Assembly: GCA_008632985.1 (NCBI GenBank)
Contig: QPGO01000070.1
Coordinates: 1 to 64,000, forward strand
Source of the DNA: Psammoneis japonica
Lineage: Eukaryota
Reading direction: 5' to 3'
Length of the DNA stretch: 64,000 bases
Shown: positions 1 through 43,155 of the stretch, one piece after another
Layout of the letters: the number at the start of each line of letters is the position of its first letter
How positions within the stretch are numbered: the first letter of the stretch is position 1
Made by a program: the position numbers and the translations under genes
Notes under the pieces: model-generated
The model's input: only the letters and a program-made list of their open reading frames with translations
Database searches by the model: none
Told to the model about the DNA's origin: nothing

Positions 1-1306
1 TGCAAACAGCAAGTGGACAAAGCTGACCAAGCCATGTGGGCAAAAGAGATCAAGACCCATGCAAGGTCAAGGCAGAAGCACCAAAGCAGAACATGAAGAA
101 AGCACACACACTGATTTAGAGTCAGGGCAGCGATGCCATGAGATCAGTGTTTGAGGCCAATGGCCAATGTGTCAATGCTGTGAATGGGCTTCAATGACAA
201 GAGTGTGCCACAATGCACAAAATTCACAAAGGAGTGATGCAGAGCTTCTGCCCAAGCCATGAGGGACAGCAACTTGACTCAGCATGGACCTGGTGCAAGA
301 AGAGGCTCCAAGCATCAGCCAGTGCAATGACTTTCATTGGAGTGGCAGTTGGCTGCCACAAGGTTCCACAAAAGGGAGCTTCCTGCATCACCTGGGTGTC
401 ACTCTGCCACAGCTGATGTTGGCAGCCAAGCTCATTTTGGCCCAAGCAGAGGCAAGAGAAGATGCCTTTGGAGGGAATGGCATTCATGCTGGGAGCAGAC
501 CAACAAAAAGCAAGATGTGCCGCAGATGTTGCCAGCTGGGAATGATGGAGCTGCACTCACCAACGTTGGTGGAAACCCAGGCAAAAACTGGTGCAGAGGA
601 AAATTGGTGAAACATGTGTTGCCCACCTCACAAGCAGGAAGAAAGGACATCATGCACCTGGCTGCATTGAAAAGGACAAAGAAGAAGCAAGCAACTCATT
701 GAGCTGCGCGCCAATGCCTTGACAGGATTGCCATGCCAACAGACAACAGCTGGCACTTTGAAGAAGCATTTGAGAGCAGAGAGTTGGGCCAGACACCAAG
801 GATGCCATCTTGTTTCAATTCTGTGCTGTGGTGGCAGACAGCACTGAGCACAATGAAGCCAACCACAGGCACACTCAATGCAAGCAATTGAGCAGGGCAG
901 TTGACCCAGGCTGGATCCTGCCAGACAGACAGCCCACACATCATGGCATGTTCATCAACAGATGAACACTGGTGACACTGGCCTTTGTGAGTCAAACAGA
1001 GGTGGCTTGACATGCATGCAATGGCAGGTGTCACCATCACCAGCCACGTGGGTGCCCTGCCTGGGGGTGCAGCAGCACATCATCCTGGCAAATTTGCCAA
1101 TGTTCCACCCCTGGCAAAGGTCAAGGAAAAGCACTGGGTGATGAGCAATGGCCACCGGTCAAGCAAACACTCACCACACACAAGAAGGACAGCAGCAATG
1201 CCAGCCCAAAGTGGCAGCCAGGCCCTGCAGTGGCACTTGTCAAGCAGTGCTGTGGCAGAGAACATGATTAAGTGCCCAGCTTGAAATGCCAAGTGAGCAC
1301 AAACTG
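1..1306. repeat. Unclassifiable TpA- and CpG-depleted, TG/CA-rich transposon relic
   Basis: Only about 2 TA and a handful of CG dinucleotides in 1.3 kb. Many overlapping Cys/His/Gln/Met-rich ORFs with no recognisable protein. Confidence 0.55.
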
Positions 1307-1582
1307 TGACAGAAATTGAAGGCAAATGGCAAGAATTCAAACAATGACTCCTTGCTGCTGTCTAAACAGCAGATGAGTCTCCACCCAGAGACCGTTGCAG
1401 GAGCCGAAAGACGTGTGAGTCGGTACAATCGGGCCACTGTCATTGTTCTTGTGAGCCTTGTGGCTCGAAAGCAAACTGCGTCGCGCGCGAACGTGTGGAA
1501 CTAAAGCACACAAAACTGTGCGCGGCAAACTGAACAGTGTGCGACATTTCGCGCGCACCCAAATCCTGTTCAAATCCTGTCA
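1307..1582 (-). repeat. 3' LTR (276 bp) of the minus-strand Copia copy
   Basis: On the minus strand it follows a PPT (ggggag, 1583-1588), starts TGACAG and ends CTGTCA (inverted termini). Its last ~94 bp match 5883-5976. Confidence 0.85.
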
Positions 1583-4500
1583 CTCCCCAGTTTGCTTGAG
1601 GAGTCACAGAAACAGATTCGACTTTGGATGGAATGAAGTTCCAGAACATGAGGGGGCGGAGAAGGTCCCAGACTTGGGAGCAACCCCAATGTCTGCTGAG
1701 AATGTCAGCAGGGTTGCGGGAGCCTTCGATGAAGTGGAGCTCAAGGTGACCAGAGGCAATTGCCTCGCGCACACGGTGGAACGACAGTGCGGTGTGTCGC
1801 TTGTGTAACTTGGAGTGCGGGATGTTGGCACTGTCTACAACCGACTTGTTGTCACCGAACATGTGACCAATGTCATGGATCGGGACGCCGAGGTGGCGCA
1901 GGGTGATGCACAGGTCGACAATCTGCTCGACACAAGTCCTTGCGGCAACAAATTCAGACCCATGGGTCACAGTCTCCATGGTGGCTTGCTTCTTAGAGAA
2001 CCAATCAGCCGGGAATTTGTTGAGGAAGTGGAGCATTCCCATGACAGAGCATCCGGTGAGCATGCAATGGTGCAAGTTTGCATCGACACAGTGGGTGGCA
2101 GTGACGAACTTGCCAAGGGGCGGTGGAGCGTCCTTCGGGATCATCTCTTCTGCTTCGCCGCACACAGAATGCATCCGTTCACAGGCCGGAGCAGGGAGAT
2201 CCGAATGGTCGGGCTCTTCCGTGCAAACGCGGAGAGCGCCGTGTCGCATCTTGGAGAGGCACCCACAGACACGTTTGGCACGATCCAAGTGGCCTTGACG
2301 GGGCGCAGCTCGGAAGCTAGAGAGTGACATGACGGCCGTGGCAATGTCAATTCGACCAAGGGACACTGCCCATTGGAGTGAACCAACAAGAGACTGGAAC
2401 TGTTGAATGCCATCGGGCCCCAGCAGTTCGGAAGTGTCCAGTTCGGGGTGGTCACCCTTCTCCAGAGGTGACAGGGCGTTGGTGGCAGGTTTCTCCCCAA
2501 ACAGTCATGTGCAGCTGTCGACCATGCGTTCAATGTACTTGCACGGAGACAGGCACAAGGTGCCGTCAGGATCCCGGGAAAAGTCGCAGCCTAGATGGAA
2601 CTCAATCGGTCCCGCACCCTTGAGCTTGAACTTGCACTTTTCCGTGAGAGTGTCGACGAAAGATTGAGGGTCCTTCATGGCAATGGCGAGGTCATCCACA
2701 TAAACGGCAACATGTTTGCAGTGGTCGCCGTTCCTGCACATCCAAATGTCGGGTTCGGCGTGGCAGGGGAAGAAACCTTCAGCTCGCAGGCAGTCGGCAA
2801 AGCGCTCGTGCCAGCGGAGGCCGGAGCTGCGCAGTCCACACAGGGCCTTGTGGATGACAAGAATGTGGCCTTCGAGTTTGCCAAATTCGGGTCCAGCTAC
2901 AATGCACAGCTTCTCCTTGGTGGTGGCTTCAAGGCAGGCATTGCCAATGTCGGTGGCCCATGTCTCCAACTCGTTGAGTTCGGCCAGGAAAATCATCAGG
3001 CGAAGGCCACGGAGGGAGACTGCTCCGGAGCAGACACTGTGGATGGGCACGTCTGTGAGGTGCCCATCGGCTGCGAGTCGTGCCTTGTGCCGGCCGTCAT
3101 GTTTCACGTCGCACACCAGGTGCACTTGGATCTTCTTGTGTCCTGCAGGAGGAGTGGAAGACTCAGAGGGCCCGCAGTCATGAAAGACTTCGCATTCATC
3201 GAGTTGGTCCATCTCGAGATTAGTTGCGTCTCCCCATTTGCGGTTGCCGTTGCATTCGTCCAGTGACATGGCGTGTTTGCAGTTCTGGGGAACTTCGCAT
3301 CCGCACTTGCAGTGAGGTGCAGTGCAGAAGGAGCAAAGCTTGGCTTGGTTGGCCATGCGGAACAGCTTCTTCTGGCGCCTCGCGATGGTGCGGAACTGCT
3401 TCCAGCCATCAGTGTCGAGAAGTCCGTTCTCTTGTGCACAGATGGCGCAGGTGACAGGGTCGTCCTTGGCGATGATGGCAAGAGGCTCGGACGTGATCTC
3501 CCCACTTTCCCATTCAAGCATGATGTTGTAGCTTGAGCCTTTCCAGGTTGGGTCATGAGGCTTCAGAGGTCCCACGTGTGACACAATGCGTCAAAATTTC
3601 CAAACAGCAGTGTCTTCGTCTTCTTGCTCAATGTGATTCATGATGTCGTTGCAGGCCAGGACTTCCTCGCATTTGTCGTTGTTGACAGAGCAGACGAACT
3701 TGGTGAGATCGGGGTTGCCGTTCACTTTCCATTCGTGGTCTTCGACGGCCTTGACGATGCGAACTCTGTGGCGTTGTCCGTCCTCTTGTGGCTGCATGAG
3801 GAAGGTGCGTCTGATGATGTCTTGCGGATCGAAAACTGGCATCTTGGGTGTCCTGATCTCCCCATCGGGTGAATCAACGGGGTTGTTGTCATGGCGAGAT
3901 TTGATGATGGGTTCAGGTGGCTCCCCATCAGGAGGATCAAGATGCAGGTTTCGAACAGCAGGGTCGGTGGCAGCGGATCGTACGTTGGACCGGCAGAGGA
4001 TCTTCTGAGTCTCGTCAGAGAGAATCTTGAAGGTCATCTGGTGGCCGACGTGCTCAGCAATGCCAACAAAGCGTCCACACAACTCACGGGATTCGGACGG
4101 CCAATCGGAGTCATCGAGGTGGAAGCACACGGGTTCCCACCAGTGAAAGCAAAGCAATGAGGTGATGTCCGGGGTGGAGCCAGTGAGAGTCTCGAGGGGC
4201 GTGCGCCAGTGGATGCGTGGGGACGCTGTGTGGTTGAGTGTGAAGCACATGCACATGAGCGCCAGCAGCCATGTGTGGGTGGGCGAACTGAAACGGTCCA
4301 TGACAGTGTTCGCCATGCGCTTCACGGTCTGGTGTTGACGTTTGGCAAAGTTTTGGTGTTGTTGGTGAGGCTCACTTTGCCAGCTGGAGACAAAGAGGGC
4401 TCGTAGGATCCCGAGCACCTTGTTGCTGATCTCAACTTGAGCACGGTCGCCAATGAGTTTGGATGGAGCACCACGCTCACGGATCTGATCCTCGAGTGTG

Positions 4501-5883
4501 TTGAAAAACTCTTTGTCCGTTTTGGTGCCGCAGACGTCAGTGACAGCAGACTCGGTGCCAACAAACAGTTGGGCGCTGGTGCAACCAGAGTCGACGGCCG
4601 GGGTGTCGGCATGAACAGTGTCAGTGGCGATGGGCTCGTCGCGGCGGTGCACATTGAGGGCGGGGTTGGGCGATTTGCAGGCCTTCTTAAGGTGTGCACT
4701 GGCGGGCATGCGGGCGCACTGCATGGTGCAGTCGAAAGCACGACGAACCGCATCGGCAGGTTGGAAACCAAAGCAAGACCGAAGAGACTCGCAGGGGGGG
4801 TCCTTGGGCTGCACAGTGCGCTCCGGGGGCGGAACGTTGTCGTCCTTGGGGTCAATCGTGTGCAAATGACACTCACAGAACACGTCGTCATTCGGAATGA
4901 GCTGGTCATCGAGGGCGGACGCGTGATCGGCAGACAAGGAGGCAGACATGATGGCCTTGTTGACAACGACACGGTGACGGCAGTTGCCGCATTCGTCAAA
5001 TGGGTTGGCAGTGGGATCGTCCTGCAGGTCAGAGATCGCGTTGTGCCACTGGTCGTCGTCAGCGACAGAGTGATCGAGGACAGAAGGATCCCATGTGTCA
5101 TCACCGGTGAGGATGACATGGGGCAGGGTGTCCCATTCGGCGTCAGTGCAGGGTCGCATGGCAACACAAGGCAGGCCGCCCTTGATGTCAATTGGGGTGA
5201 CACAGCCATCAGGGGTGGCGACACATTGCAAGCTGCTGGGCACCTTGACAGAGCAATCGTTGACATCATGTTTGCACCATTCGAGCTGGCCACAGGAATG
5301 AATGGTCTTGCCCTTTCCTGTGCATGCGTGCTGATGGAGGATGGCGATGACGGGACCACACTGTGTCTCAATGACAGCACCAGCGGTGACAATGGGGATG
5401 TCCACCAATTGGTGGTCGTCAATGCCCTGAACGTCGACTTGGCGAGTGGTGCGTGCAATGACGCGAACGTCGTTGCCAGCAATGCCGCCGTTGGCCCCAC
5501 GATCAACTGGAGCACCAGTGCGTGTGGAGCGATGAGCGGAGGCAGAGCAAATGACATTGTGGTTGTTGACGCGGCAGCAAGTGCGGCCGTTGAGTTCCAT
5601 GTCATCTGCAGGAGCAGGAGAGGTGGAGCGAGCGGCGGATGGGCCCGGTCGACTGGCGTTGGGGGCTTGGTCAGGAGACAACAGGCATTGCAGATCACTG
5701 GGTGGCAGTGGCTTGCGCTTGGCGAGGTGCACCAGAATGGGATCATCTGAAGTGGCGTCCACATTTGGAGCGGGGTCACCAGAGTCAGCAGTGGTCGTGT
5801 TGGACAAGTTGACATCACCGTCACTCCCAAGGCGTTGGTCGTGAAGGTTGACCGCAACGGACTCATGGCAGTTGCTGGCTTGC
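1307..5883 (-). mobile_element. Ty1/Copia LTR retrotransposon (diatom CoDi-like), 5'-truncated and degenerate
   Basis: Protease-like DRGANG, integrase, RT (KALCGL, VYVDDL) and RNase H (FGDNKSVV, NPADILS) in Copia order, followed by PPT and 3' LTR. Confidence 0.93.
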
Positions 5884-5976
5884 TGCAACGGTCTCTGAGC
5901 GGAGACTCATCTGCCATTTAGACAGCAGTGAGGAGTTGTTGTTTGAATTCTTTCCACTTGCCTTCAATTTCTGTCA
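5883..5976 (+). repeat. 3' remnant of the 5' LTR of the plus-strand Copia copy
   Basis: Reverse complement of 1307-1400, ending CTGTCA. Confidence 0.85.
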
Positions 5977-6797
5977 GATTGACAGTCTTGCTCATTGTCA
6001 ACCCATTGAGCAACCGCCATCATCGTCGTTGATTTGCCGACGATGCCACTTCAATTCTGCGCGGACCTCCGCATGTGTTCTACATGCATCGGCAAGTCCA
6101 CGCGCATTCAATGCCAGGCATCGGCAGGAATTTAACGTCGCCATCAAGTCTCCTTGCCGCTGGACATCTGGATTGATTGTGCCACCTTTTTTGCTGAAGA
6201 CACACATTCAACGGTTGCATCCAAGTCTGTCCTTTTTCCTCATCCCTTGACACACCCATTCGACGGTTGACGGTCAAGAACCCTGCATGTTCAAGGATCT
6301 TCGTCGATGAAGACACATGTGTGCACATCTTCACGGCCAAGGACTTGAACCCACTCTTTGGACTGCGGCTTTGCCACCACTCTACAAGCACGCCGAGTCT
6401 GTTGCACCTGATCTACCCCGGACCACTGGTGCTCTGCAGTTCTGCTGGGTCCACGAGGATGACTGTGAGAGCAAGCAGCCGTGATTGCAGCCTGCGTTGG
6501 GGCGAGGGTGCTTTCCCACGTTTGTTCGTTCGTCCACAGCACCTGACGCCTGCGTCAACTGGCCAGCCTGATCGGGAAATCCAACCGATGTAAAATGAGA
6601 ACGGTTCGGGGGTCTTGTCCACCTCTTGTCAGCTTGCCTGCAGGGGTTTACAACCCGCTGCTCCGCTTGCAAGCAACCCAAAGCGCCGCCAGCTGCGGGT
6701 TCGGACGTGCCGGCACAACTCTGCCGACCGGACAGGAAGTTTGGCACTTGACAACGAACGGGACAACACAACCCGGCGACTTCTGATTTTAAGATAG

Positions 6798-6858
6798 TTC
6801 AAGATTTCAAGTCAAGTCTGTTTCAAGTCAAGTCTGTTCTTCCTCAAGTTTCAAGTCC
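6798..6858 (+). repeat. Short tandem (t)tcaag repeats in the Copia leader
   Basis: ttcaagatttcaagtcaagtctgtttcaagtcaagtctgttcttcctcaagtttcaagtc just upstream of gag. Confidence 0.7.
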
Positions 6859-9800
6859 ACCTCCACGTCCCAACAAGAATCGCTTGTGCTGACACCGCTT
6901 TTGTCTGCCATGGTTCTCACTTGTCAGCAACAAACCGATGGCTTCGAGCACGTTGTTGGAACCGTGCTTGCCCAAGGTGCTGGAAGCCCTCTTCGTTTGG
7001 CTTTGACCCATGACGGCACGGACTCGCACCAAGAACTGTTCACATTCATGCCGTCCCAAATCGACTCGCTTGAGTGCGACAATGGCACTGATGTGATCCC
7101 TTTGCCCCGCAGTTGTAAGAACATGTCAGCAGCTCTAGTTGGTCTGTACATTGTCAAAGCACACGAAGGTCTTGACATTGCCAATGACTCCTCGTTGTTC
7201 ACGCATGACGAGTTCCTTGCCTGCCGCCTCAGCCCCGACTGCATGTCTTCTGTGTCTGTCGGCAGCTCACCCCTCGCACCTCCGCATGTCACCAACCCGG
7301 CCAAGGCACGCGACCCGGTGCGAGACTTCAAGTGAGGCATCAAGCGTGACCCCACCGCTTTCACGGCTCTCAAATCAGACAAGCAGTGGCACACTTGGCA
7401 CACCTCACTTGTGGCACAAGCCCGTGCCCAAGACGTCGAGTGCATTCTAGACTCGTCGTACAAACCGACCAGCCCCAAAGACAAACTGCTCTTTGCTGAA
7501 CAGCAAAAGCACATGTTCGCCGTCTTCGAATGCATCCTTCTCACCGACAAGGGCAAGGCTCTCATTCGCGAAAATGTGGGGTCTTCTGACGCCCAGACCA
7601 TCTGCCGTGCCTTGTCCGAGCATGCGCTCGCCTCCACCCGCGCATCCATCGAGTCCTCCACCTTGCTCACGTGCCTTGCCACCGCACGTCTTGGTGATGG
7701 CACTTGGAAAGGTCCGACCCACGGGTTCATCCTTCATTGGCAGGATCAGTTGCACAAGTGCAAGGCACTCATCCCGGCCAGTGACCACTTCTCTGAAGGA
7801 CAGAAGCGTGTCATGCTCGAGAATGCTGCACATCCTGTCGAGGAACTCCGCGCCGTCAAGAACCAAGCTGATCAGCATCGCACGCAGAGTGGCAAGAGCC
7901 TCACATGCGATCAATGTTGTGGCTTGCTCCTCTCCGCGGCGGCTCAATGCGACAGTGCATTTCAACCCAAGATGACACCTTGAGCTCCCCGATGCGCCAC
8001 ACACGCACATGACGTCTGCTCCGAGGAACCATCCGATGATGTGTTCCATGACATTGACAGCGACATTGATGTCCTTCAGGCCAACGCTGCCTGCACCCGC
8101 GGTCCCAGCCTCACCGGTGACCAATGGAAACGTCTCCCCCCCGACCACCAACGGATTTGGGATTCGTTGCCCCATTCCTCCAAGGCGATCATCCTTGAGC
8201 ATTCTCGTCCGCCTCCACGCAACCCGCGAGCCAGCAACTGCCATGAGTCCATTGCGGCCAACCTTCACGACCAACGCCTTGGGAGTGACGGTGATGTCAA
8301 CTTGTCCAACATGACTCCTGCTGACTCTGGTGACCCCACTCCAAATGTGGATGCCACTTCAGATGATCCCATTCTGGCGCACCTCACCAAGCACAAGCCA
8401 CTGCCACCCGGTGATCTGCAACGCCTGTTGTCTCCCAACCAAGCCCCCAACGTCAGTCGACTGGGCCCATCCGCCGCTCGCTCTACCTCGCCTGCTCCTG
8501 CAGATGACATGGAACTCAACGGCCGCACTTGCCGCCGTGTCAATGACCACAATGTCATTTGCTCTGCCTCCGCTCATCGCTCCACATGCACTGGTGCTCC
8601 AGTCGATCGTGGAGCCAACGGCGGCATTGCTGGCGACGATGTTCGCATCATTGCATGCACCTCTTGCCAAGTCGACATTCAGGGCATTGACGACCATCAA
8701 TTGGTGGACATGCCCATTGTCACCACTGGTGCTGTCATTGAGACACAGCGTGGTCCCGTCATTGCCATCCTCCATCAGCGCGCATGCACGGGAAAGGGCA
8801 AGACCATTCATTCCTGCGGCCAGCTCGAATGGCACAAACATGGTGTCAACGATCGCTCTGTCAAGGTGCCCAACGGCTTGCAACGCATCGCCACCCCTGA
8901 TGGCCATGTCATCCCAATTGACATCAAGGGCGGCCTGCCTCATGTTGCCATGCGACCCTGCACTGACGCCGAATGGGACACCCTGCCCCATGTCATCCTC
9001 ACCGGTGATGACACATGGGATCCTTCCGTCCTCAATCACTCTGTCACTGACGACGACCAGTGGCACAACGCGATCTCTGACCTGCAGGACGATCCCACTG
9101 CCAACCCATTTGACGAATGCGGCAACTGCCGTCACCGTGTCGTTGTCAACAAGGCAATCATGTCCGCCTCCTTGTCTGCCGATCACGCGTCCGCCCTCGA
9201 TGACCAGCTCATTCCAAATGACGACGTGTTCTACGAGTGTCATCTGCACGCGATTGACCCCAAGGACGACGACGTTCCGCCCCCGGAGCGCACTGTGCAG
9301 GCCAAGGACCCCCCCTGCGAGTCTCTTCGGCCTTGCTTTGGTTTCCAACCTGCCGATGCGGTTCGTCATGCTTTCGACTGCACCACGCAGTGCGCCCGCA
9401 TGCCCGCCGGTGCACACCTTAAGAAGGCCTGCAAATCGCCCAACCCCGCCCTTGATGTGCACCGCCGCGACGAGCCCATCGCCACTGACACCGTTTGTGC
9501 CGACACTCCGGCCGTCGACTCTGGTTGCACCAGCGCCCAACTGTTTGTTGGCACCGAGTCTGCTGTCACTGACGTCTGCGGCACCAAAATGGACAAAGAG
9601 TTTGTCAACACACTCGAGGATCAGATCCGTGAGCATGGTGCTCCATCCAAACTCATTGGCGACCGTGCTCAAGTTGAGATCAGCAACAAGGTGCTCGGGA
9701 TCCTGCGGCCCTCTTTGTCTCCAGCTGGCAAAGTGAGCCTCACCAGCAACACCAAAACTTTGCCGAACGTTGACACCAGACCGTGAAGCGCATGGCAAAC

Positions 9801-12434
9801 ACAGTCATGGACCGTTTCGGTTCACCTGCCCACACATGGCTGCTGGCGCTCATGTGCGTGTGCTTCATGCTCAACCACACAGCGTCCCCATGTCTCCACT
9901 GGTGCACGCCCCTCAAGACTCTCACTGGCTCCACCCCGGACATCAGCCCATTGCTTCGCTTTCACTGGTGGGAACCCGTGCACTTCCACCTCGATGACTC
10001 CGATTGGCCGTCCAAATCCCGTGAGTTGCGTGGATGCTTTGTTGGCATTGCTGAGCATGCCGGCCACCAGATGACCTTCAAGATTCTCTCTGATGAGACT
10101 CAGAAGATCCTCCACCGGTCCAACGTATGATCCGCTGCCACCGATCCTGCTGTTCGAAACCTGCATCTTGATCCTCCTGATGGGGAGCCACCTGGACCCA
10201 TCATCAAATCTTGCCATGACAACAACCCCGTCGATTCACCCAATGGGGAGATCAGGACACCCAAGATGCCAGTTTTTGATCCGCAAGACATCATCGGACG
10301 CACCTTCCTCATGCAGCCACAAGAGGACGGACAACGCCACAGAGCTCGCATCGTCAAGGCCGTCGAAGACCACGAATGGAAAGTGAACGGCAACCCTGAT
10401 CTCACCAAGTTCATCTGCTCTGTCAACAACGACAAATGCGAGGAAGTCCTGGCCTGCAATGACATCATGAATCACATTGAGCAAGAAGACGAAGACACTG
10501 CTGTTTGGAAATTTCGACGCATTGTGTCACACGAAGGACCTCTGAAGCCTCATGACCCAACCTGGAAAGGCTCAAGCTACAACATCATGCTTGAATGGGA
10601 AAGTGGGGAGATCACGTCCGAGCCTCTTGCCATCATCGCCAAGGATGACCCTGTCACCTGCGCCATCCATGCACGAGAGAACGGACTTCTCGACACTGAT
10701 GGCTGGAAGCGGTTCCGCACCATCGCGAGGCGCCAGAAGAAGCCATTCCGCATGGCCAACCAAGCCAAGCTTCACTCCTTCTGCACTGCGCCTTGCCACA
10801 AGTGCGGATGCGAAGTTCCCCGGAACTGCAAACACGCCATGTCACTAGATGAACGCAACGGCAACCGCAAATGGGGAGACGCAACTAATCTTGAGATGGA
10901 CCAACTCGATGAATACAAAGTCTTTCATGACTGCGGGCCCTCCGAGTCTTCCACTCCTCCTGCGGGACACAAGAAGATCCGAGTGCACCTGGTGTGCGAC
11001 GTGAAACACAACGGCCACCACAAGGCACGACTCGTAGCCAATGGGCACCTCACGGACGTGCCCATCGACAGTGTCCACTCTGGAGCAGTCTCCCTCCGTG
11101 GCCTTCGGCTGATGATTTTCCTGGCCAAACTCAACGAGTTGGAGACATGGGCCACCGACATTGGCAATGCCTGCCTTGAAGCCACCACCAAGGAGAAGCT
11201 GTGCATTGCAGCTGGACCCGAATTTGGCAAACTCGAAGGCCACATTCTTGTCATCCACAAGGCCCTGCATGGACTGCGCAGCTCCAGCCTCCGCTGGCAC
11301 GAGCGCTTCGCCGACTGCCTGCGAGCTGAAGGTTTCTTCCCCTGCCGCGCCAAACCCGACATTTGGATGCGCAGGAACAGCGACCACTGCGAATGTGTTG
11401 CCGTTTGTGTGGATGACCTTGCCATTGCCATGAAGGACCCTCAATCTTTTGTCGACACTCTCACGGAAAAGTGCAAGTTCAAGCTCAAGGGTGCGGGACC
11501 GATTGAGTTCCATCTGGGCTGCGACTTTTCCCGGGATCCTGACGGCACCTTGTGCCTGTCTCCGCACAAGTGCATCGAACGCATGGTCAACAGCTGCACA
11601 CGACTGTTTGGGGAGAAACCTGCCACCAATGCCCTGTCACCTCTGGAGAAGGGTGACCACCCCGAACTGGACACTTCCGAACTGCTGGGGCCCGATGGCA
11701 TTCAACAGTTCCAGTCTCTTGTTGGTTCACTCCAATGGGCAGTGTCCCTTGGTCGAATTGACATTGCCACGGCCGTCATGTCACTCTCTAGCTTCCGAGC
11801 TGCGCCCCGTCAAGGCCACTTGGATCGTGCCAAACGTGTCTGTGGGTGCCTCTCCAAGATGCTACACGGCGCTCTCCGCGTTCGCACGGAAGAGCCCGAC
11901 TGTTCAGATCTCCCTGCTCCGGCCCATGAATGGATGCATTCCGTGTACGGCGAAGCAGAAGAGATGATCCCGAAGGATGCTCCACCGCCCCTTGGCAAGT
12001 TTGTCACTGCCACCCACTGTGCCAATGCAAACTTGCACCATTGCATGCTCACCGGACGCTCTGTCATGGGAATGCTCCACTTCCTCAACAAATTCCCGGC
12101 TGATTGGTTCTCTAAGAAGCAAGCCACCATGGAGACTGCAACCTGCGGGTCTGAATTTGTTGCCGCAAGGACTTGTGTCGAGCAGATTGTTGACCTGTGC
12201 ATCACCCTGCGCCACCTCAGCGTCCCGATCCGTGACATTGGTTGCATGTTTGGTGACAACAAGTTGGTTGTAGACAGTGCCAACATCCCGAACTCCAAGT
12301 TACACAAGCGACACACCACACTGTCGTTCCACCGTGTGCGTGAGGCAATTGCCTCTGGTTGCCTTGAGCTCCACTTCATCAAAGGCTCCCGCAACCCTGC
12401 TGACATTCTCAGCAAACATTGGGGTTGCTCCCAA

Positions 12435-13880
12435 TGTGTCAACCAAGCACACACAGTGATGCACACAGCAGACATGGAATTGCAGTCAACATGGGCTGCA
12501 TGGACAGCCCACTTGAGGCCATGCCTGCATGTTTCACAGAAATGGAGGCCACCTTCAATGCAGCATCACTGCAGGGGCACATGGCAGAGGTTGAGTGCTG
12601 TGTTCAGACCAATGATGACAGCATGTTTCAAACTGGAGAGATTGCAGCGTGCTTCCATTCCAGTGCTTCCCACACCACCTTGTGATTGAAGTGGCAGTGT
12701 GTTGGGTGACATTTTGGTGGAGCTGTTTTGTGGCCAAGGATGGAATTTCTGACAAGCACAGCCTGCAAGCCATCATTTTGTCGGCCTTTAGATTGACCAC
12801 AACAGCCATTGTCTGCTGTTGGAGTTTGGGCAGCCCTGCATGCAAAAAATGACGGACATGACAACAGCATGGTGGGCTGCACTGCTGGAGTTCTTGTGCT
12901 GTGCAGCCATTGGGAAACACCCAGCCAGGAGGGTGGCCATTTCTTCATGAGCCTGTCCATGAAACACTGGACCAGCAGCTGAAAGTCTGTGAAGCCCAGA
13001 CAACATTGCCAGTGCCTGGTGCTGTTCTTGACCAAGTGCATTGGCACATGGCCAGGTGCAACAAGGCAAGGAAGGGGATTGTTTTCCATGGTCAGTCTGG
13101 CAACCTCATCAAGAAAAAAAATTCAGAAAAAAATGGTGGGAGGCAGACTCAAGCTTGGAGGCTTCAACACTGTCCCTGGCTGGGTGCAGCAGCAGCAGAT
13201 CACAGCCACCCAGGCTTCTCTGTGCAAGCTGGCCGACAAAAAGATGTGCACCTGCAGCTTCTGAGGGCACAATGGTCAAAGGCCCACTCTGGCTCAGCTG
13301 GGACAAATGTGCCAAGTGCGCGTGACACTTGCTGAGATCAGCCATGCTCTGAGGGGTGGTCTGACAGTCAAGTGCAGCAGGGGTTGCTTTTCATCAAGTT
13401 TCAGAACCAGATCATGAGCATGGAAGGTTGTTTTCCAGCAGAGGGCCTGGGCTGTCACAGGAGGAGTGTGCTGGAGCACAAAGAGCACGTGCACCCCTGG
13501 ACAGCTGATGCTGCACAAAGCCGCAACAGCCGTGAGGAAGCAGGTGTGGCGGATCATCCAGTCAGGAATCTGCAACCAAGGAACTTGATGAGGCAGATTC
13601 AGGAGGGGAGATGGTGCTGAAAATGATGCAACCAGTGGAGCTGCAGCTGGGAACGAAAACAAAAGAGCAGCGAGAGCGAGATCGCTCTGGGCGAGCCAGG
13701 AGGAAGAGAGAAAGCCCACCAGATTCACAAGAAGGTGAAAGAGAGAGAGATGAATGGGGCCAGCTCATTCCAACACAATTGTCAACTCTAATGCCCATCA
13801 GACTGTGGGAGATCTGCGATTTTATAAATCCAGACCCAAAGCAAGGACAGACACGTTGTTTGGCAACACCGCAAAATGAT
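12435..13880. repeat. TpA/CpG-depleted relic DNA, unclassified
   Basis: Almost no TA and few CG. No recognisable protein. Confidence 0.5.
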
Positions 13881-14026
13881 GCATGCGTGGGAAGAAAGAA
13901 TCTTTTTCGAATCTTCGCGAATCTTTCACGCTGACGGACGACACTCGCGTTGAGTGCGCGAAATTTTGGCGGGCGGAGCATCTGCAGGTTCTCCTTTGTT
14001 TGCTGTCGTGTCCTCACATTCTCAGC

Positions 14027-14524
14027 ATGAAGTTGCTTACCACGACGTTGTTCGCTTTGCTGTTTGGTGTTTCCGTTGCCTTTACCACTACAAGCGGTAG
14101 CAAACCATTTATGTTTCGTCCCTTGGCTCAGCGTGTGCTAGTTCGTACCATGGCGACTAAACCCGGCGTTGCTACTGTGGAGGAATTGCAAGCCATGGCT
14201 CAAAACAAGAATTTGGTTGTGATTGACGTGCGCAATCCCGATGCTTCCGTCGAGCCTGGGGACCAAAAGAGTTTGGCAGTGGCGCCCTTGCCGTCATCTA
14301 ACGTGAGACCAAACGCGCTTCACTTGATTTGGGACCGCAATCAAGACAAAATGCCTTTGCCTCCAGCGGAGGTCGCCAAGGATACACCCATCATTACACA
14401 CTGTGGTGGAGGAGGACGAGGACAAAAGGCAAAGGAATTCTTGCAAGAAAATGGATACACAAATGTATTGAATGGAGGTGGACCGAAATTGACCGAGCAC
14501 TGGGCTGAATATGGAGACAAGTAA
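14027..14524 (+). CDS. Single-domain rhodanese (sulfurtransferase-like) with bipartite plastid-type presequence
   Basis: Signal peptide MKLLTTTLFALLFGVSVA-F. Motifs VVIDVR, IITHCGGGGRG and GYTNVLNGGG. Confidence 0.85.
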   Translation: MKLLTTTLFALLFGVSVAFTTTSGSKPFMFRPLAQRVLVRTMATKPGVATVEELQAMAQNKNLVVIDVRNPDASVEPGDQKSLAVAPLPSSNVRPNALHLIWDRNQDKMPLPPAEVAKDTPIITHCGGGGRGQKAKEFLQENGYTNVLNGGGPKLTEHWAEYGDK

Positions 14525-15599: not shown

Positions 15600-17270
15600 G
15601 TTGCGGCATCTTGTGCTGTTTTGTGATCTGTCCGGAAGGTGGAAGCTCACATGACCAACACAGATCGACCATGGGGCCCGACCGCGCCACAAAAAGGCCC
15701 ACCAAAGACCAAACCTGTTCGTGATCAAATTCGGGGGACAACAGGAACTTACACAAGCCGCGAATCTAATGTCCCTGGAGGTCAAAGGTCTTTGGATTCT
15801 GGGGCCTGCACCTTGTCGGCAATGCCCGTCTGCCTTTGTTTCCCCCACCAGCTGAGTGGATGTGGCCATTGGGAGACATTGGGCACATGTCTCTGTCAAT
15901 CCTCACATGATGCTGCATGTGATGGTCTCTGAGTGACAAAAAAGGAAGGGTGCAGAGCCACCCCAGGCAGGCACAACAGCCAGTGGCACATGTGAGAAGT
16001 TTTTGTTGCAACTGAGATTTTGCCAGAGCTCTGCCAGCTGGCAGCCAGGGTGTGTGTGCACTTTGTTTTTGGGTGAAAGCACTGCACCAGCATGACTGTC
16101 TTTTCAGAGGAAGTTTGTGAGCACAGAAGCACAGCAAGCCAAACCAAAAGCCAACACTCTTGGAGTGCTGGGGAGGACGAGCATGGTGCAAGCAGCCACG
16201 GGGCACACAGCCATGGGGTGATGAGCTTCTCTCTTTTGTGAAAGAGAGCTCTGAAAAAGAGACCATCTTTGCATTTGCTGTTGAGAATAAAATGAAGACA
16301 ACTTTTGCAAGCAATGTGGGAAAAGATTCTAAAAAATCTGTCCAGCCTGCCACTTTGGTGCACACATGGCTGGAAAGCTGCAGTGTTTTGGAGGGGAGCA
16401 GACATTGTTTGCTGTCAAAAACAAAAAGAAGCAGAAACGGAGCCAGTTTGCTGCTTGGGTGCCCCCACAAGGAGACGAGAGCACATCTGGCCTGAAAGCT
16501 GCAGAGCATTTCTGTAAGAGCAGCAGTCCCAAGGCCCCAAATGATGACCTGCTGTTTGAGCAAGAACAATGTCATTGGATCAGAGAGTCTCATTTTGCAG
16601 CAAGCCACAGCAAAAGAGTTTGGGAGCTCTGAGCTTTTCATGATGAAGAGTTGCTTTGTTGTGCAAGCAAGTGAACAGGGCAAGCAAGCACCAGCAGAGA
16701 AAGAAGAGCAAGAAGGAGCTCATTTTCAAAGCACAAGTTTCTGCAGCACAGACGGGAGGAATGCTCTCCAGCTCTGTGTGAAAAAGTGCATGTTGCTCTG
16801 CTGGCTGGCATGCTGGAAACCAAGGAAGAGTGCAACCAGGTGACTGGGCGAGGCACCAATGGAGAAGAGTGGCCAAGCTGGTGCCAAGAAAAAACGTTTG
16901 TTGTGCAGAGAGTTTCAAGCAAAGGACAGCACTGAAGAAGCAGTGGACCTGCAGAATTTGCCACAGACCAGAGTTTTCTCTTGGCTCTTTTGTGAACAAT
17001 TTTTCACAGGATTTGCAGCTGCTTTTTGCAGAGAATGTCCCAAGTTTCCCCAGCGCAGGCTTTTCCAACAGAGTTTGGCTGGCACCAATGCCATGATTGC
17101 AATTTTCTTGTGACACACAAAAGCTGCAAATTGGTTGTCACAGGCGACAGACTCAAAATCACTTTGCTTTGTTGTGCAGGTGCTGCGCCACAACTCTGCC
17201 TTGAACAACAAGTGCTCTCGTCCTGTCACTCCCCCCTGCAACGTGGGAGTGTGTTCCTGTCTCACCCCCA
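15600..17270. repeat. TpA/CpG-depleted relic DNA, unclassified
   Basis: Very few TA. Dense spurious ORFs on all frames. Confidence 0.5.
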
Positions 17271-17547
17271 CCCTCTACAACACTCGCATGTAGCCCCTTC
17301 ATGACCCACCACACCATCCACAGGGCCGGGCCCAGAGGGCCCTCTCTACTAGAGCTAGAGTAGATCCGTCCACATGCGGGACAGATGTCCGTCCGTCCAC
17401 TGTGCGGCCACAGGGTCTGTGCGTCGCCCCATCATGTCTGTCCTTCACCCTGACCCCAACCTAACAGCCTGCGATCTTGCGATCTTATCCATCTCTTTAT
17501 GGGTCTCGATCAAGGAAAATCACAGAACACCGCAAGGCCTAAGGACG

Positions 17548-27000: not shown

Positions 27001-29073
27001 TTACGATTCTACCTCTGAGAAATGATCTGCAAAGCATTGACCGCATCGAATGACACCTGGACTACAAAGACAATATGTACGAACCTTCCTGTTGCAGGTG
27101 ATGCACTTGCGTTGTGCATAAGGTGATTGTGCATTGACAATTTCTGCGCCTCGGAATTTTTTTCCGCGCGGCAGGGTGGTGAGCCGGTGACTCGACGATC
27201 TAGGCCTGCGTCTCGGTCTCTCAGCCTCTTCCCTGGCAAGATAATCATTGAATATGAGGTCGTGGGCAAAGCGCTTCCGATATTCAAGCTGCTCTTCAAG
27301 TCGTTGGTTGTAGAAGTACCAATTGCCGAGGCAACAATTCACTTCGGTTACCGCGAGAAGGAAAGCATGCACACGATTTGGCCACCATTCCGTTCCCCAA
27401 GTCTCCTCCAAACTAATTGGACTCTGCCTTCGATCGTTGTGGTCATTAACAGCGTGTCTGAATTTGAAATGATTGTGTACAACCTCGGGGTACTGAAAGG
27501 TATCCTGCCGGTTCTCCCCGTTAATGACGTACTGCCGAGTTTTCAGTCCACCCATACGTTCATTGGTGCCATAAGAAGACATAAGCATCATTACATAGTC
27601 TGGTTCTTTCATTGCAAATATGTTCAGCGGTACAGTGTTGAGAGAACCCGAAATAGAATCAACGTCACCGACCTGCTTGTTGTCGAAATGCGCAATGATA
27701 GTGTCCGCCTCCACGTGCCTCGGCCAACACTGGCGCTTCTTTATCAATGCAGCAGCAAACACTCCTTTCAACCGCAGCTCGGCTATACCCTCAAGCACAC
27801 AAAAGCCACTGCCCAGCACAACAACCTTAGCCTGGTTCCAAATGGATTTTGTGAGTCGAAGCAAAAGCCCAACAGTTTTGCCCTTGTCGTCATGCTCCGG
27901 TCTCGGTCGCTCCCGCGGCTCGTCCTTACCCTCCACAAGCTCAATCGTGTACAGTATACGAGACAAACCACAGCATTCGGTATGATACTCATTTCCAAAT
28001 GGCCACGGCTTCCTTGGACAAAAAACAAAACCAGGGCAAGTGTATTGGTTGATCCAAGTAGACATGGACTGATCAATACAACTTACCCAGCTAGGAGTGA
28101 AGTTCTCACTCATGTTGTTATTCCAAGCTTCAATCATCTGCCTGACTTCATGGAAAGGATCATTGTAATTCGGGGCAGGCCGATCCGTGTACCGAATGCA
28201 TCTTAGAATTTCCTCAAACCGACTGCGTGACATGAGATCCCCAAGTCGGAACGGAGCGCCCTCAAATCTTGTGACCTCCGTATCTGACCAAAAGTCGTGA
28301 CGTTGTGGACCCTGAATAGTCGCCATCAAAAACCACATGCCAAGCCATCGCAAGTATTCACCATACAGCACCCTCTCTCCTTGTATATTTGCATTGATTT
28401 GGGGAATAATCACACCCAACACAAACGATTTTGGAAAGAACAACTCAAACAACTGTAGTCGTGTCGGCTGGATATCGCTCTGGAATCGAATGGAGGCGTT
28501 CGTGTTTTGTACATTGAGAACACGTCGGTAGCATATTCCATTGTGCCCCCACACATTCCCAAACACATCATTATCAGCATCTTGAGCTGCAGGCGGGGGA
28601 GGTATATTTTCTGGAGCAGGTACGTTGTCATCGTCAATATCAACAATGCCTCTGGCGAGCGTAATGTCTTCGCGCGAAAAAGTACCACGCCGCTGTTGCA
28701 AATCTTGAATCACTGGATGCGTTTCTTCTTGCTCGTTGTCGTCGTCGTCTCCTTCTCTCTCGCCTTCCCTGTTGCTGGCACCATCAAAGAAGTGTTCACT
28801 CGGACCTTCCCGAGTGACTTTGCAATATCTCGTGACAGCATGCATCTCAATGGGGGAAGAGTCATCTCTGTCGAGAAATGATTCTTGAGTAAACACGACG
28901 GCGAGTTGCATTCTGCGGTTGATGTTTTTCATTTCCAAACGCAATACGACTGCATTTTCGAGCCTCTGCTCTGGTGGATGTTGAGGAAAGACACGAATGA
29001 CGTATTCACGTGGATGAACGACCTTGAGAAGGACCGAAATCCTTGCTTCCCGTCCCATGGTCAACGTCGTCAT
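27001..29073 (-). CDS. piggyBac-family transposase, probably catalytically impaired
   Basis: Motifs MSRSRFEEIL, SCIDQSM, PRKPWPFG, VVLGSGF and RHAVNDHN, plus a C-terminal Cys-rich domain (CITC...CLC...CGQC). Confidence 0.88.
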   Translation of the reverse strand: MTTLTMGREARISVLLKVVHPREYVIRVFPQHPPEQRLENAVVLRLEMKNINRRMQLAVVFTQESFLDRDDSSPIEMHAVTRYCKVTREGPSEHFFDGASNREGEREGDDDDNEQEETHPVIQDLQQRRGTFSREDITLARGIVDIDDDNVPAPENIPPPPAAQDADNDVFGNVWGHNGICYRRVLNVQNTNASIRFQSDIQPTRLQLFELFFPKSFVLGVIIPQINANIQGERVLYGEYLRWLGMWFLMATIQGPQRHDFWSDTEVTRFEGAPFRLGDLMSRSRFEEILRCIRYTDRPAPNYNDPFHEVRQMIEAWNNNMSENFTPSWVSCIDQSMSTWINQYTCPGFVFCPRKPWPFGNEYHTECCGLSRILYTIELVEGKDEPRERPRPEHDDKGKTVGLLLRLTKSIWNQAKVVVLGSGFCVLEGIAELRLKGVFAAALIKKRQCWPRHVEADTIIAHFDNKQVGDVDSISGSLNTVPLNIFAMKEPDYVMMLMSSYGTNERMGGLKTRQYVINGENRQDTFQYPEVVHNHFKFRHAVNDHNDRRQSPISLEETWGTEWWPNRVHAFLLAVTEVNCCLGNWYFYNQRLEEQLEYRKRFAHDLIFNDYLAREEAERPRRRPRSSSHRLTTLPRGKKFRGAEIVNAQSPYAQRKCITCNRKVRTYCLCSPGVIRCGQCFADHFSEVES

Positions 29074-29348
29074 GATGCATCAAAAAGATTTTTTGTGCAC
29101 ATCGGTGTCAAACATGTACTATCAGTGTGCTGAACTTATCCCTGCATATTATTTACGAGCTCGAATTTGCACAGACATGCTCCAGAGCGTGTCTGTGCAT
29201 TTACGTAGATTTTGTACCAGTCGCATCGTAGAGTGATGTTGTTCGCCTGCCCCAACGAACTCTTTCTCGTACATAAAATATTACTCACGCCTGCCGGATA
29301 GGTTGGAGGTACATTTTCCTGGTACAAACACGTAGAATTTAACGCAGC

Positions 29349-42991: not shown

Positions 42992-43155
42992 TGCAAGCTC
43001 AAGCTGAGGTTGATGTCAAAACAAAGAAGTGGGCAGACCAAAGAGAGGGAGAGCCTGAGCGTCAGTGAGCACTGGCGAGCCCTCTCAAACGGCTGCGTCA
43101 ATCTAACATCCAAAATCAATGCTGTGTGTCAGAAGTGTGCGAGTGAGTTGCTGCA
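42992..43155 (-). repeat. Gypsy 3' LTR
   Basis: Direct repeat of 48430-48593, adjacent to the PPT. Confidence 0.9.

What the first reader, a model, noticed from the sequence alone, without database searches (positions are those of the whole stretch)
1307..12434. Transposon-targeted TpA->TpG/CpA hypermutation: a candidate 'reverse RIP' genome-defence process
Seen: stretches of 1 kb or more in the Copia copies have no TA at all (e.g. 4690-5917, 7461-8483), while neighbouring genes have normal TA. The two sister copies resolve the same site differently. KAL[C]GL (tgt, ~2839) versus KAL[H]GL (cat, ~11268) is one case. Others are SV[C/H]SG, CAI[C/H]A, T[H/C]GSEF, D[H/C]SDLP, PV[C/H]FH, DTV[H/C]AD, GLP[C/H]V and EW[C/H]K. 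V[Y]VDD survives in one copy (~2700) and is V[C]VDD in the other (~11406). Known: KALYGL and YVDD are conserved Copia RT motifs, so the ancestor there was TAY rather than CGY. Inference: A->G hits either strand of the TpA palindrome, independently in each genomic copy, so it acts on DNA after insertion rather than by RNA editing or RT error. Fungal RIP creates TpA; this process removes it. It destroys catalytic tyrosines, TATA and AATAAA signals, and TA/TTAA target sites. Candidate mechanisms are a chromatin-guided DNA adenine deaminase, a thymine or adenine modification, or error-prone (Pol eta-like) patch repair in methylated DNA. I am not aware of a description of this process, but I could not check the literature.
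Basis: partly seen in the sequence, partly recalled or inferred. Interest (0 to 1): 0.95.

Follow-up and report, generated by a model that had tools for sequence, protein, structure and literature searches.

The report
TpA-purging hypermutation of diatom transposons
Transposon DNA in this probably diatom genome has had nearly every TA step turned into TG or CA after insertion, wrecking the elements' proteins; it matches a genome-defence-like mutation process first reported in 2026 in an unrelated alga.

Summary
Half of the window (about 31 kb, in six blocks of transposon-type DNA) has TpA at 0.09 of expectation, against 0.57 in the genic half. Apart from TG and CA (up) and CG (down), no other dinucleotide differs much.

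At columns where relatives keep tyrosine (TAY), the two Copia copies keep 3 of 31. The rest are mostly Cys (TGY) or His (CAY). An unrelated Gypsy element keeps 1 of 12.

The two Copia copies, two 437-nt LTR-like repeats and the two Gypsy LTRs resolve the same ancestral TA differently. The change therefore hit DNA after it was duplicated or integrated.

Ordinary CpG decay runs in parallel.

The process prefers TAT/ATA contexts and, in the Copia, the sense strand.

It is not undescribed. A 2026 bioRxiv preprint shows de novo TpA->TpG/CpA hypermutation of integrated viruses in Bigelowiella natans. This looks like a second, far more saturated case, in a probable diatom, aimed at LTR retrotransposons. 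The enzyme is unknown; adenine deamination is the leading guess.

The parts
1674..5883 (-). Copia (RVT_2) copy A: shared 4,210-nt block with 13 TA left and almost no Tyr codons
   Evidence: inverted repeat, 94.7%; 13 TA, 270 CG, 378 TG, 412 CA; 3 of 31 conserved Tyr columns kept.
8226..12434 (+). Copia copy B; the RT/RNase H ORF 10266-12689 is P0001 (Pfam RVT_2)
   Evidence: (15 TA).
5884..8225 (.). TA-poor, high-copy spacer between the two copies. It has no protein-family hit. 5883-5976 is an inverted match of 1307-1400.
   Evidence: repeat structure; summed depth 62,000-83,000 against about 57 for single copy; no Pfam hit; TA-free 7460-8483.
1..1673 (.). TA-free flank (118-1268 has no TA). 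It is also CpG-poor. 335-1121 is low copy.
   Evidence: TA 0.02, CG 0.08 in 1-1000; (records 1 and 2 match with 0 differences, depth about 30).
12435..14037 (.). TA-poor flank, low copy from about 12665, with a sharp edge at 14038
   Evidence: TA positions; records 4 and 5: 0 differences, depth about 32.
15768..17275 (.). Single-copy TA-free, CpG-poor block between the AlkD-like gene and the SOD gene
   Evidence: depth 58-65; no Pfam hit.
32551..34982 (+). Small LTR-type element: 437-nt direct repeats 32551-32987 and 34546-34982 around 1.56 kb, with a polypurine run before the second repeat
   Evidence: Of 37 differences, 22 nt come from 11 CA/TG discordant sites, 11 from CpG, 2 from TA/CA and 2 from other changes.
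32101..37451 (.). TA-depleted block containing the small LTR element and tandem-like repeats (36055-36420)
42992..48594 (-). Gypsy-type LTR retrotransposon: 3' LTR 42992-43156, 5' LTR 48430-48594, pol ORF 43863-46667
   Evidence: RVT_1, RNase H, integrase zinc domain; LTRs, polypurine tract; 1 of 12 Tyr columns kept; LTRs lost 11 of 12 against 4 of 12 TA sites.
39877..48400 (.). TA-depleted block around the Gypsy element
62533..64000 (.). TA-depleted block running off the window, with a sharp edge at 62532
27001..29079 (-). Control: intact piggyBac-type transposase ORF with normal TA and Tyr, not purged
   Evidence: PF13843, 4e-55; TA 0.45-0.60; Tyr 2.9%.

Best explanation
A host-directed mutational process converts 5'-TA-3' to TG or CA (A:T to G:C transitions on either strand). 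It acts on transposon DNA that is already integrated and leaves neighbouring genes untouched. It runs almost to saturation while background divergence is still under 1%. Tyrosine codons become Cys or His, so the elements' enzymes are destroyed. Methyl-CpG-type decay (CG to TG/CA) runs beside it in the same blocks, roughly ten times more slowly per site.

Shown: the signature, its confinement to transposon blocks, its independence in duplicated DNA, the context preference (TAT/ATA most hit) and a sense-strand bias in the Copia.

Inferred: the chemistry is enzymatic deamination of adenine to hypoxanthine in DNA, read as G, by a TadA/ADAT-like deaminase. The enzyme would be aimed at silenced chromatin or small-RNA-marked loci. 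It may reach the non-template strand more easily during residual transcription.
For: 1. Specificity. In depleted against normal DNA, TA is 0.09 against 0.57, CG 0.67 against 0.97, TG 1.58 against 1.22 and CA 1.61 against 1.17. The other 12 dinucleotides have ratios of 0.92-1.09, and AA is 0.98.

2. Direction.
- At 31 columns where at least 70% of 20 or more homologues have Tyr, each Copia copy has 3 Y, 19 C, 6 H, 2 F and 1 W.
- The other 19 residue classes are kept in about 70-100% of columns.
- Reverse changes are rare: His is kept in 23 of 23 (copy A) and 22 of 23 (copy B) columns, and Cys in 6 of 7.
- The Gypsy pol has 12 Tyr columns, now 1 Y, 6 C, 4 H and 1 F.
- Eighty metagenomic relatives of the Copia have a median TA o/e of 0.71, and none is below 0.3.

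3. Independence after duplication.
- Of 30 Tyr columns mutated in both Copia copies, 16 are C/C, 3 are H/H and 11 are discordant.
- Full independence with a TG share of 0.72 predicts 15.4, 2.4 and 12.2 (counts, expectation by hand).
- The 437-nt LTR-like pair has 11 CA/TG discordant sites where CpG decay predicts 0.69, and only 2 background differences.
- The Gypsy 3' LTR lost 11 of 12 inferred TA sites and its 5' LTR lost 4 of 12 (p = 0.009).

4. Rate.
- Per copy, 33 of 36 Tyr-codon TAs are lost.
- CpG loss is 0.22 per copy and other sites changed at 0.44% (counts, arithmetic by hand).
- This makes TpA roughly 400-600 times faster than background.

5. Not an assembly quirk. K-mer contigs of run X1 match 2,049 nt of TA-free unique sequence with 0 differences at depth about 30.

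6. Precedent. De novo TpA->TpG/CpA mutations arose in integrated viral DNA of B. natans mutation-accumulation lines, about 1000-fold above background. TpA-depleted CDS there were enriched for RT and DDE domains.
Against: - No de novo event was observed here. Everything is inferred from fixed differences.
- No whole genome was available, so no deaminase candidate could be sought and no genome-wide test was run.
- Run X1 is probably the source sample and its platform is not on record.
- The Copia pair has odd architecture: identical end points, no LTRs and unrelated flanks. Its history (segmental duplication, conversion or recombinant elements) is not resolved.
- No target-site duplications were found for either LTR element.
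- The sense-strand bias is 43:17 at Copia Tyr columns and 16:2 in the palindromic GTAC context. It could also point to a transcript-linked or partly pre-integration step. Those counts assume that the copies were hit independently.
- The Gypsy shows no clear bias (6:4).
- Sequence alone cannot separate adenine deamination from a thymine-based lesion.
Confidence: 0.72

Rival explanations
1. Same post-integration, TpA-specific process, but the chemistry is not adenine deamination. One option is a thymine modification or lesion at TpA (for example a TET/JBP-type product) that is miscopied as C. Another is repeated error-prone patch repair (Pol eta-like, WA motif) triggered by 5mC deamination in methylated transposons.
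For: - T to C on one strand and A to G on the other cannot be told apart in sequence.
- The purged blocks also show CpG decay (CG o/e 0.67 against 0.97), so they are probably methylated.
- Pol eta in antibody hypermutation favours A in WA motifs with a coding-strand bias (recalled, not from a call). That resembles the 43:17 sense bias.
Against: - AA is not depleted (ratio 0.98) and AG barely rises (1.08), so the motif is TA, not WA.
- Among 21 non-CpG, non-TpA transitions between the copies, very few are AA to AG.
- Metagenomic relatives L015, L012, L016, L021 and L065 have CpG o/e of 0.10-0.24 but TA o/e of 0.47-0.57. Heavy CpG decay alone therefore does not bring a TpA purge.
- Removing about 90% of sites by polymerase error would need very many repair rounds while other sites stay 99.5% intact.
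Confidence: 0.17
2. Editing before integration. A deaminase acts on the retrotransposon RNA (sense A to G) and on minus-strand cDNA (sense T to C) during reverse transcription. Each new insertion would then be born hypermutated, as with APOBEC3G and HIV.
For: - The clearest cases in the window are LTR retrotransposons.
- The Copia shows a sense-strand excess of A to G.
- The Copia family is very abundant: summed depth is 20,000-165,000 against about 57 for single copy.
Against: - The two LTRs of one element are copied from one template. Yet the 437-nt pair differs at 11 TG/CA discordant sites, and the Gypsy LTRs differ 11 of 12 against 4 of 12.
- Single-copy blocks with no recognisable retroelement are TA-free (15768-17275, 335-1121, 12665-13872).
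- Tandem-like repeats at 36073-36358 also carry 4 CA/TG discordances.
- In B. natans the same signature arises de novo in integrated dsDNA-virus sequence.
Confidence: 0.07
3. Artefact. Modified bases at TpA in transposon DNA are miscalled as TG or CA by the sequencing platform and then fixed by the assembler.
For: - Miscalls that differ by read strand could mimic discordance between copies and sharp block edges.
- The platform of the supporting run is not on record.
Against: - Contigs built from exact 31-letter words, at depth 30-57, reproduce 2,049 nt of TA-free unique sequence with no difference. That needs accurate reads.
- The same blocks show ordinary CpG decay and 0.5-0.9% background divergence, as real ageing DNA does.
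- The B. natans signature was called from Illumina data.
Confidence: 0.03
4. No special process. The CA/TG excess comes from CpG decay alone, and low TA is a compositional trait of these transposon families.
For: - 115 of 222 differing positions are CpG-type.
- 4-6 of the 29 discordant sites trace to CpG.
Against: - Tyr columns turn into Cys or His, while Arg columns are kept in 35 and 40 of 46.
- CpG decay predicts about 8 discordant sites in the Copia pair (by hand) against 29 observed, and 0.69 in the LTR pair against 11 observed.
- Relatives of the family have a median TA o/e of 0.71.
Confidence: 0.01

Closest known systems
TpA->TpG/CpA hypermutation of integrated NCLDV and virophage DNA in Bigelowiella natans (Mettrop et al., bioRxiv 10.64898/2026.01.13.699255; Results and Discussion read)
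   Same: - Only A to G and T to C changes, only at TpA, on either strand.
- Confined to foreign or selfish DNA that is integrated in the nuclear genome.
- Hundreds to a thousand times faster than background.
- The long-term footprint is TpA depletion with CpA+TpG gain.
- TpA-depleted CDS in B. natans were enriched for reverse transcriptase and DDE domains.
   Different: - The host here is most like diatoms (stramenopiles), not a chlorarachniophyte (Rhizaria). The preprint does not mention diatoms.
- The targets here are LTR retrotransposons and unidentifiable repeats.
- The purge is near saturation (TA o/e 0.09; 92% of Tyr-codon TAs gone). The B. natans NCLDV region still holds 3.3% TpA.
- This case adds a TAT/ATA context preference, a sense-strand bias, coupling with CpG decay and unequal purging of the two LTRs.
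- There is no direct mutation-accumulation evidence here.
Fungal repeat-induced point mutation (RIP)
   Same: A genome-defence-like hypermutation riddles integrated transposon copies with transitions in one dinucleotide context and destroys their ORFs. It works like RIP in outcome.
   Different: - RIP makes C to T changes, mainly at CpA, so it creates TpA. This process removes TpA.
- RIP needs duplicated sequence and a premeiotic stage. Here single-copy blocks are purged too, and no life-cycle stage is known.
- The details about RIP are recalled knowledge plus abstracts seen.
5-methylcytosine deamination (CpG decay) in methylated transposons
   Same: It is present in the same blocks: CG o/e is 0.67 against 0.97, 115 CpG-type differences separate the Copia copies, and Arg turns into Cys, His, Gln or stop. 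It converges on the same TG/CA products.
   Different: It cannot remove TA or turn Tyr into Cys or His. It is about ten times slower per site here. Relatives in other hosts show CpG decay without TpA loss.
ADAR / APOBEC-type hypermutation of retroelements and viruses
   Same: Deamination-type transitions cluster in selfish elements. ADAR prefers U before the edited A (as stated in the preprint's Discussion).
   Different: Those systems act on RNA or single-stranded cDNA before integration and mark one strand. Here both strands of integrated duplex DNA are hit, and the LTRs diverge from each other.

Membership tests
B. natans-type TpA hypermutation of foreign DNA | Changes are almost only A to G or T to C, and only at TpA | tested here: met
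   Only TA falls (ratio 0.16) while TG and CA rise; 12 other dinucleotides stay at 0.92-1.09. Tyr goes to Cys or His in 25 of 31 Copia columns and 10 of 12 Gypsy columns.
B. natans-type TpA hypermutation of foreign DNA | Confined to foreign or selfish DNA; host genes are spared | tested here: met
   There are six TA-poor blocks holding Copia, Gypsy, an LTR element and repeats. Genic windows have TA o/e of 0.41-0.72, and host ORFs have Tyr at 2.6-4.4%.
B. natans-type TpA hypermutation of foreign DNA | Acts on DNA already integrated in the genome | tested here: met
   This is indirect. Hits are independent in the sister copies (16 C/C, 3 H/H, 11 discordant), in the 437-nt LTR-like pair (11 discordant against 0.69 expected from CpG) and in the Gypsy LTRs (11 of 12 against 4 of 12).
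B. natans-type TpA hypermutation of foreign DNA | De novo events in clonal lines; episodic activity | not testable with these tools
   No mutation-accumulation or multi-strain data were available. Only one sample's runs were found.
B. natans-type TpA hypermutation of foreign DNA | Rate orders of magnitude above background | tested here: met
   92% of Tyr-codon TAs are lost per copy, against 0.44% change at other sites. That is roughly 400-600-fold (counts, arithmetic by hand).
B. natans-type TpA hypermutation of foreign DNA | Host carries an ADAT2-like candidate DNA adenine deaminase | not testable with these tools
   No genome is held for this window, and the window holds no deaminase gene.
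Fungal RIP | C to T at CpA, creating TpA | tested here: not met
   The direction is opposite: TpA is removed and CA and TG are gained.
Fungal RIP | Needs duplicated sequence | tested here: inconclusive
   TA-free blocks at single-copy depth exist (12674-20000 at about 57). They may be old repeats whose copies have diverged beyond 85%.
Pre-integration RNA/cDNA editing (ADAR/APOBEC3-like) | One strand marked; both LTRs of an insertion carry the same changes | tested here: not met
   Both strands are hit (43 TG to 17 CA), and the LTRs differ at TA-derived sites.
Pol eta-type WA-motif mutagenesis | AA as well as TA is mutated (WA to WG) | tested here: not met
   The AA ratio is 0.98 and the AG ratio 1.08.
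Ty1/Copia LTR retrotransposon (the target element) | RVT_2 reverse transcriptase in a pol with homologues, flanked by LTRs | tested here: inconclusive
   RVT_2 scores 2e-19 and there are hundreds of Copia-type homologues. However, no LTRs flank either copy.

The most novel reading that the evidence does not exclude
TpA-directed A:T to G:C hypermutation may be an old genome-defence system shared across the SAR supergroup (Rhizaria and stramenopiles) and carried out by a natural adenine deaminase that works on chromosomal DNA. In diatoms it would be aimed at methylated, silenced retrotransposons, prefer T-A-Y, and reach the non-template strand more easily. That would make it a true mirror image of fungal RIP and a natural counterpart of engineered adenine base editors.
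Probability: 0.3. Interest if true: 0.9.

Novelty: new member of a known kind. Interest (0 to 1): 0.72.

Why it matters
- Until 2026, no cellular process was known that targets adenine/thymine pairs in foreign DNA the way RIP or APOBEC enzymes target cytosine.
- A second, independent and much more saturated case in a diatom-like genome would show that the Bigelowiella finding is not a curiosity of one alga or of giant-virus inserts.
- It would make LTR retrotransposons a main target.
- It gives usable parameters for finding the enzyme and the targeting signal: the TAT/ATA preference, the strand bias, a rate about ten times that of CpG decay, sharp block edges and an LTR gradient next to an active gene.
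- Some diatoms are genetically tractable (recalled, not from a call), so candidate deaminases could be tested by knockout.
- The process also matters for annotation. Purged elements lose TAA/TAG stops and Tyr, so they give long false ORFs in all frames and fail domain searches (P0002 has no Pfam hit).
- A natural DNA adenine deaminase with a dinucleotide preference would interest base-editing work.

Tried and rejected
- Whole-genome access: none is held. No genome-wide scan and no search for deaminases could be run.
- LTRs for the Copia pair: none found with seeds of 11 or BLAST words of 7. There is only a 94-nt inverted match, 1307-1400 against 5883-5976. The origin of the pair is left open.
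- Target-site duplications for the two LTR elements: none seen.
- Pfam on 30 long ORFs from the TA-poor blocks: only one hit, which is a host AlkD-like gene at the block edge. With TAA and TAG gone, these ORFs are mostly artefacts.
- Host placement with a WD40 ORF was uninformative, as was the protein atlas. The SOD ORF gave diatom best hits at only 60-67%. The host is therefore 'diatom-like', not identified.
- Strand bias from TG and CA observed/expected ratios was dropped. Raw counts in the sense strand are CA 412-420 against TG 378-380, so the o/e difference reflects base skew. The bias claim rests only on Tyr columns.
- Metagenome relatives: 0 of the 80 kept (593 confirmed) are purged. One of the two search patterns required Tyr or Phe and the best matches were kept, so purged copies elsewhere could have been missed. 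This is a baseline, not evidence of absence.
- Earlier notes of this scan: nothing on this genome and nothing relevant.
- Literature: eight searches found only the B. natans preprint for TpA hypermutation. A term search of Maumus et al. 2009 (PMC2806351) for dinucleotide, hypermutation and deamination found nothing. bioRxiv supplements are closed, so the preprint's tables of TpA-depleted genes were not seen.

Full report
**What is in the sequence**

The window splits into two kinds of DNA. About 31 kb, in six blocks (1-14050, 15768-17275, 32101-35100, 35401-37451, 39877-48400, 62533-64000), holds 174 TA dinucleotides. The other 33 kb holds 1,322.

| Dinucleotide | o/e in purged blocks | o/e in the rest |
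|---|---|---|
| TA | 0.09 | 0.57 |
| CG | 0.67 | 0.97 |
| TG | 1.58 | 1.22 |
| CA | 1.61 | 1.17 |

The other twelve dinucleotides differ by ratios of only 0.92-1.09, and AA has a ratio of 0.98.

There are 46 TA-free runs of 200 nt or more. At the genic TA frequency, a 1,231-nt run has a chance of about 3e-22. Most block edges are sharp to within tens of bases, for example at 14038, 17276, 37452 and 62532.

**What the blocks are**

- An inverted pair of Copia-type copies, 1674-5883(-) and 8226-12434(+), 94.7% identical with one indel. The pol carries RVT_2.
- A Gypsy-type element, 42992-48594(-), with RVT_1, RNase H and integrase zinc domains, 165-nt LTRs and a polypurine tract.
- A small LTR-type element, 32551-34982, with 437-nt direct repeats and a polypurine run.
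- Several stretches with no recognisable content.

Between the blocks lie ordinary intron-poor genes with normal TA and normal tyrosine content. These are kinases, an Fe/Mn SOD, a class-C GPCR, a WD40 protein and an AlkD-like repair enzyme.

**The host**

The SOD's best named relatives are all diatoms: Attheya 67%, Thalassiosira 66%, Ditylum 65%, Skeletonema 61% and Seminavis 60%. A named relative of the Copia is from Cylindrotheca. The host is therefore diatom-like but not identified. No whole genome was available.

**Direction of change**

I mapped 118 homologues of the Copia pol onto both copies codon by codon.

- At the 31 columns where at least 70% of 20 or more homologues have Tyr, each copy has 3 Tyr, 19 Cys, 6 His, 2 Phe and 1 Trp.
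- Other residue classes are kept in about 70-100% of columns.
- Arg is kept in 35 and 40 of 46 columns. Its replacements are Cys, His, Gln and stop, the mark of CpG decay.
- Columns conserved as His, Cys or Gln almost never became Arg, so TG and CA are end states.
- The ORFs hold 0-0.4% Tyr and 4.4-4.8% Cys. Eleven homologues hold 3.2-5.0% Tyr and 0.9-1.4% Cys.

The unrelated Gypsy pol repeats the result. Of its 12 Tyr columns, 1 is still Tyr, 6 are Cys, 4 are His and 1 is Phe. The ORF holds 0.3% Tyr, 4.8% Cys and 4.5% His.

Eighty metagenomic relatives of the Copia have a median TA o/e of 0.71 and a minimum of 0.33. The purge is therefore not a family trait. One search pattern did require Tyr or Phe, so this set is a baseline only.

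**Timing**

Forty columns have Tyr as the homologue majority. Their states in copies A and B are:

| A / B | Columns |
|---|---|
| C / C | 16 |
| H / H | 3 |
| C / H | 6 |
| H / C | 5 |
| C / Y | 2 |
| Y / C | 2 |
| Y / Y | 1 |
| F / F | 4 |
| W / W | 1 |

For the 30 columns mutated in both copies, full independence with a TG share of 0.72 predicts 15.4, 2.4 and 12.2. The observed values are 16, 3 and 11 (hand calculation). Essentially all of the purge therefore post-dates the split of the two copies.

The 222 differing positions break down as follows:

| Class | Count |
|---|---|
| CG versus TG or CA | 115 positions |
| CA/TG discordant | 29 sites (58 positions) |
| TA versus TG or CA | 11 positions |
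| Other transitions | 21 |
| Transversions | 16 |
| Indel | 1 |

From 204 shared CpGs, CpG loss is 0.22 per copy. That predicts about 8 CpG-derived discordant sites. Homologue columns assign 4-6 of the 29 to CpG and 14-15 to TpA. Six have no homologue coverage, and the rest are ambiguous.

The Copia pair has identical end points, no LTRs and unrelated flanks. Its origin is unclear, so I looked for cleaner duplicates.

- **The 437-nt LTR-like repeats.** They differ at 37 positions: 22 from 11 TG/CA discordances, 11 CpG-type, 2 TA/CA and only 2 others. CpG decay predicts 0.69 discordances.
- **The Gypsy LTRs.** They share 12 inferred ancestral TA sites. The 3' LTR, inside the block, lost 11. The 5' LTR, at the block edge beside an active-looking kinase gene, lost 4 (Fisher p = 0.009).

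LTRs of one insertion are copied from one template, so these differences arose on DNA after synthesis, most simply after integration. Single-copy stretches are purged too (depth about 57, or about 30 for the flanks). So are tandem-like repeats.

**Rate and preferences**

- Per copy, 33 of 36 Tyr-codon TAs are gone.
- CpG loss is 22%.
- Other sites changed by 0.44%.
- By hand, TpA decays about 400-600 times faster than background and about ten times faster than CpG.

Survival of TA-containing trinucleotides, in purged relative to normal DNA:

| Trinucleotide | Survival |
|---|---|
| TAT | 3% |
| ATA | 4% |
| GTA | 10% |
| TAC | 13% |
| TAG | 15% |
| TTA | 18% |
| CTA | 21% |
| TAA | 22% |

Surviving TAs are enriched in TTAA, CTAA and CTAG contexts.

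At Copia Tyr columns, the sense-strand A was hit 43 times and the antisense A 17 times (p = 0.001). In the palindromic GTAC context the ratio is 16:2. Gypsy shows 6:4. The bias is real in the Copia if the hits are independent. It is not shown to be general.

**Artefact check**

One sample's public runs hold the region. In run X1, contigs built from exact words at depth 30-57 match 2,049 nt of TA-free unique sequence (335-1121, 12665-13872) without a single difference. The Copia region collects a summed depth of 20,000-165,000, so the family has hundreds to thousands of copies.

The run is probably the source sample and its platform is not recorded, so this is not independent confirmation. It does argue against noisy-read miscalling.

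**What is known**

Eight full-text searches found one description of TpA hypermutation: Mettrop et al., bioRxiv 10.64898/2026.01.13.699255. I read its Results and Discussion.

- In Bigelowiella natans mutation-accumulation lines, 231 of 302 new mutations fell in two integrated viral regions.
- All but one of the 231 were A to G or T to C, and all of these fell on TpA.
- They arose at about 1000 times the background rate.
- They arose in only some lines.
- TpA-depleted CDS were enriched for RT and DDE domains.
- An ADAT2-like protein was proposed as the deaminase.
- The preprint does not mention diatoms. Its supplements could not be read.

**Verdict**

- Its claim of novelty is superseded.
- What remains new is a second host lineage, LTR retrotransposons as targets, near-saturation, the context and strand preferences, the parallel with CpG decay, and within-element gradients.
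- The enzymatic step is inferred, not shown. I put adenine deamination at about 0.4-0.5 of the total.

Noticed in passing
window 14735-15544 (-): This ORF matches PF08713, the DNA alkylation repair enzyme family (AlkD-like glycosylase), at E = 5e-56. It lies directly beside the single-copy TA-free block 15768-17275. This is probably coincidence, but it is a base-excision enzyme next to purged DNA.
   Followed up: no
window 27001-29079 (-): An intact 692-aa piggyBac-type transposase ORF (PF13843, 4e-55) has normal TA and 2.9% Tyr. It is either domesticated or a transposon that escapes the purge.
   Followed up: partly
window 335-1121 and 12665-13872 against 14010-19147: Run X1 covers the TA-free unique flanks at depth about 30 and the neighbouring genes at about 57. 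The transposon island may sit on one haplotype only.
   Followed up: no
window 25490-26896, 29675-31162, 48790-50205, 50686-52071: Four paralogous protein-kinase ORFs of 460-495 aa are interleaved with the transposon blocks.
   Followed up: no
window 55695-57293 (+): This ORF has three topoisomerase C-terminal repeats (Toprim_C_rpt) followed by two HMG boxes, an unusual domain combination.
   Followed up: no
L015, L012, L016, L021, L065 (metagenome contigs): These relatives of the Copia have CpG o/e of 0.10-0.24 but TA o/e of 0.47-0.57. They show strong CpG decay without a TpA purge in other hosts. L053 has the lowest TA o/e, 0.33.
   Followed up: partly
window 32880-32900 and 34875-34895 (in the 437-nt repeats): Three TAs within about 12 nt (contexts CTAC, CTAA, CTAG) survive in both LTR-like repeats, while 13 other inferred TA sites were converted in at least one repeat. 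This may reflect local protection or a refractory CTA context.
   Followed up: partly
window 46343-46671: A 163-nt tandem duplication (2 copies, 97% matches) lies inside the Gypsy pol ORF.
   Followed up: no
window 1-14000, all frames: TAA and TAG are gone, so the purged blocks give many long overlapping ORFs in all six frames (48 ORFs of 100 aa or more in 14 kb). Gene finders would over-call here.
   Followed up: no
P0003 (homologue on a 1.86-Mb contig): Two halves of this 1,070-aa predicted protein (1-454 and 456-1069) align to overlapping parts of the Copia pol. It looks like a mis-joined or tandem RT model, and I left it (and P0004) out of the column counts.
   Followed up: no
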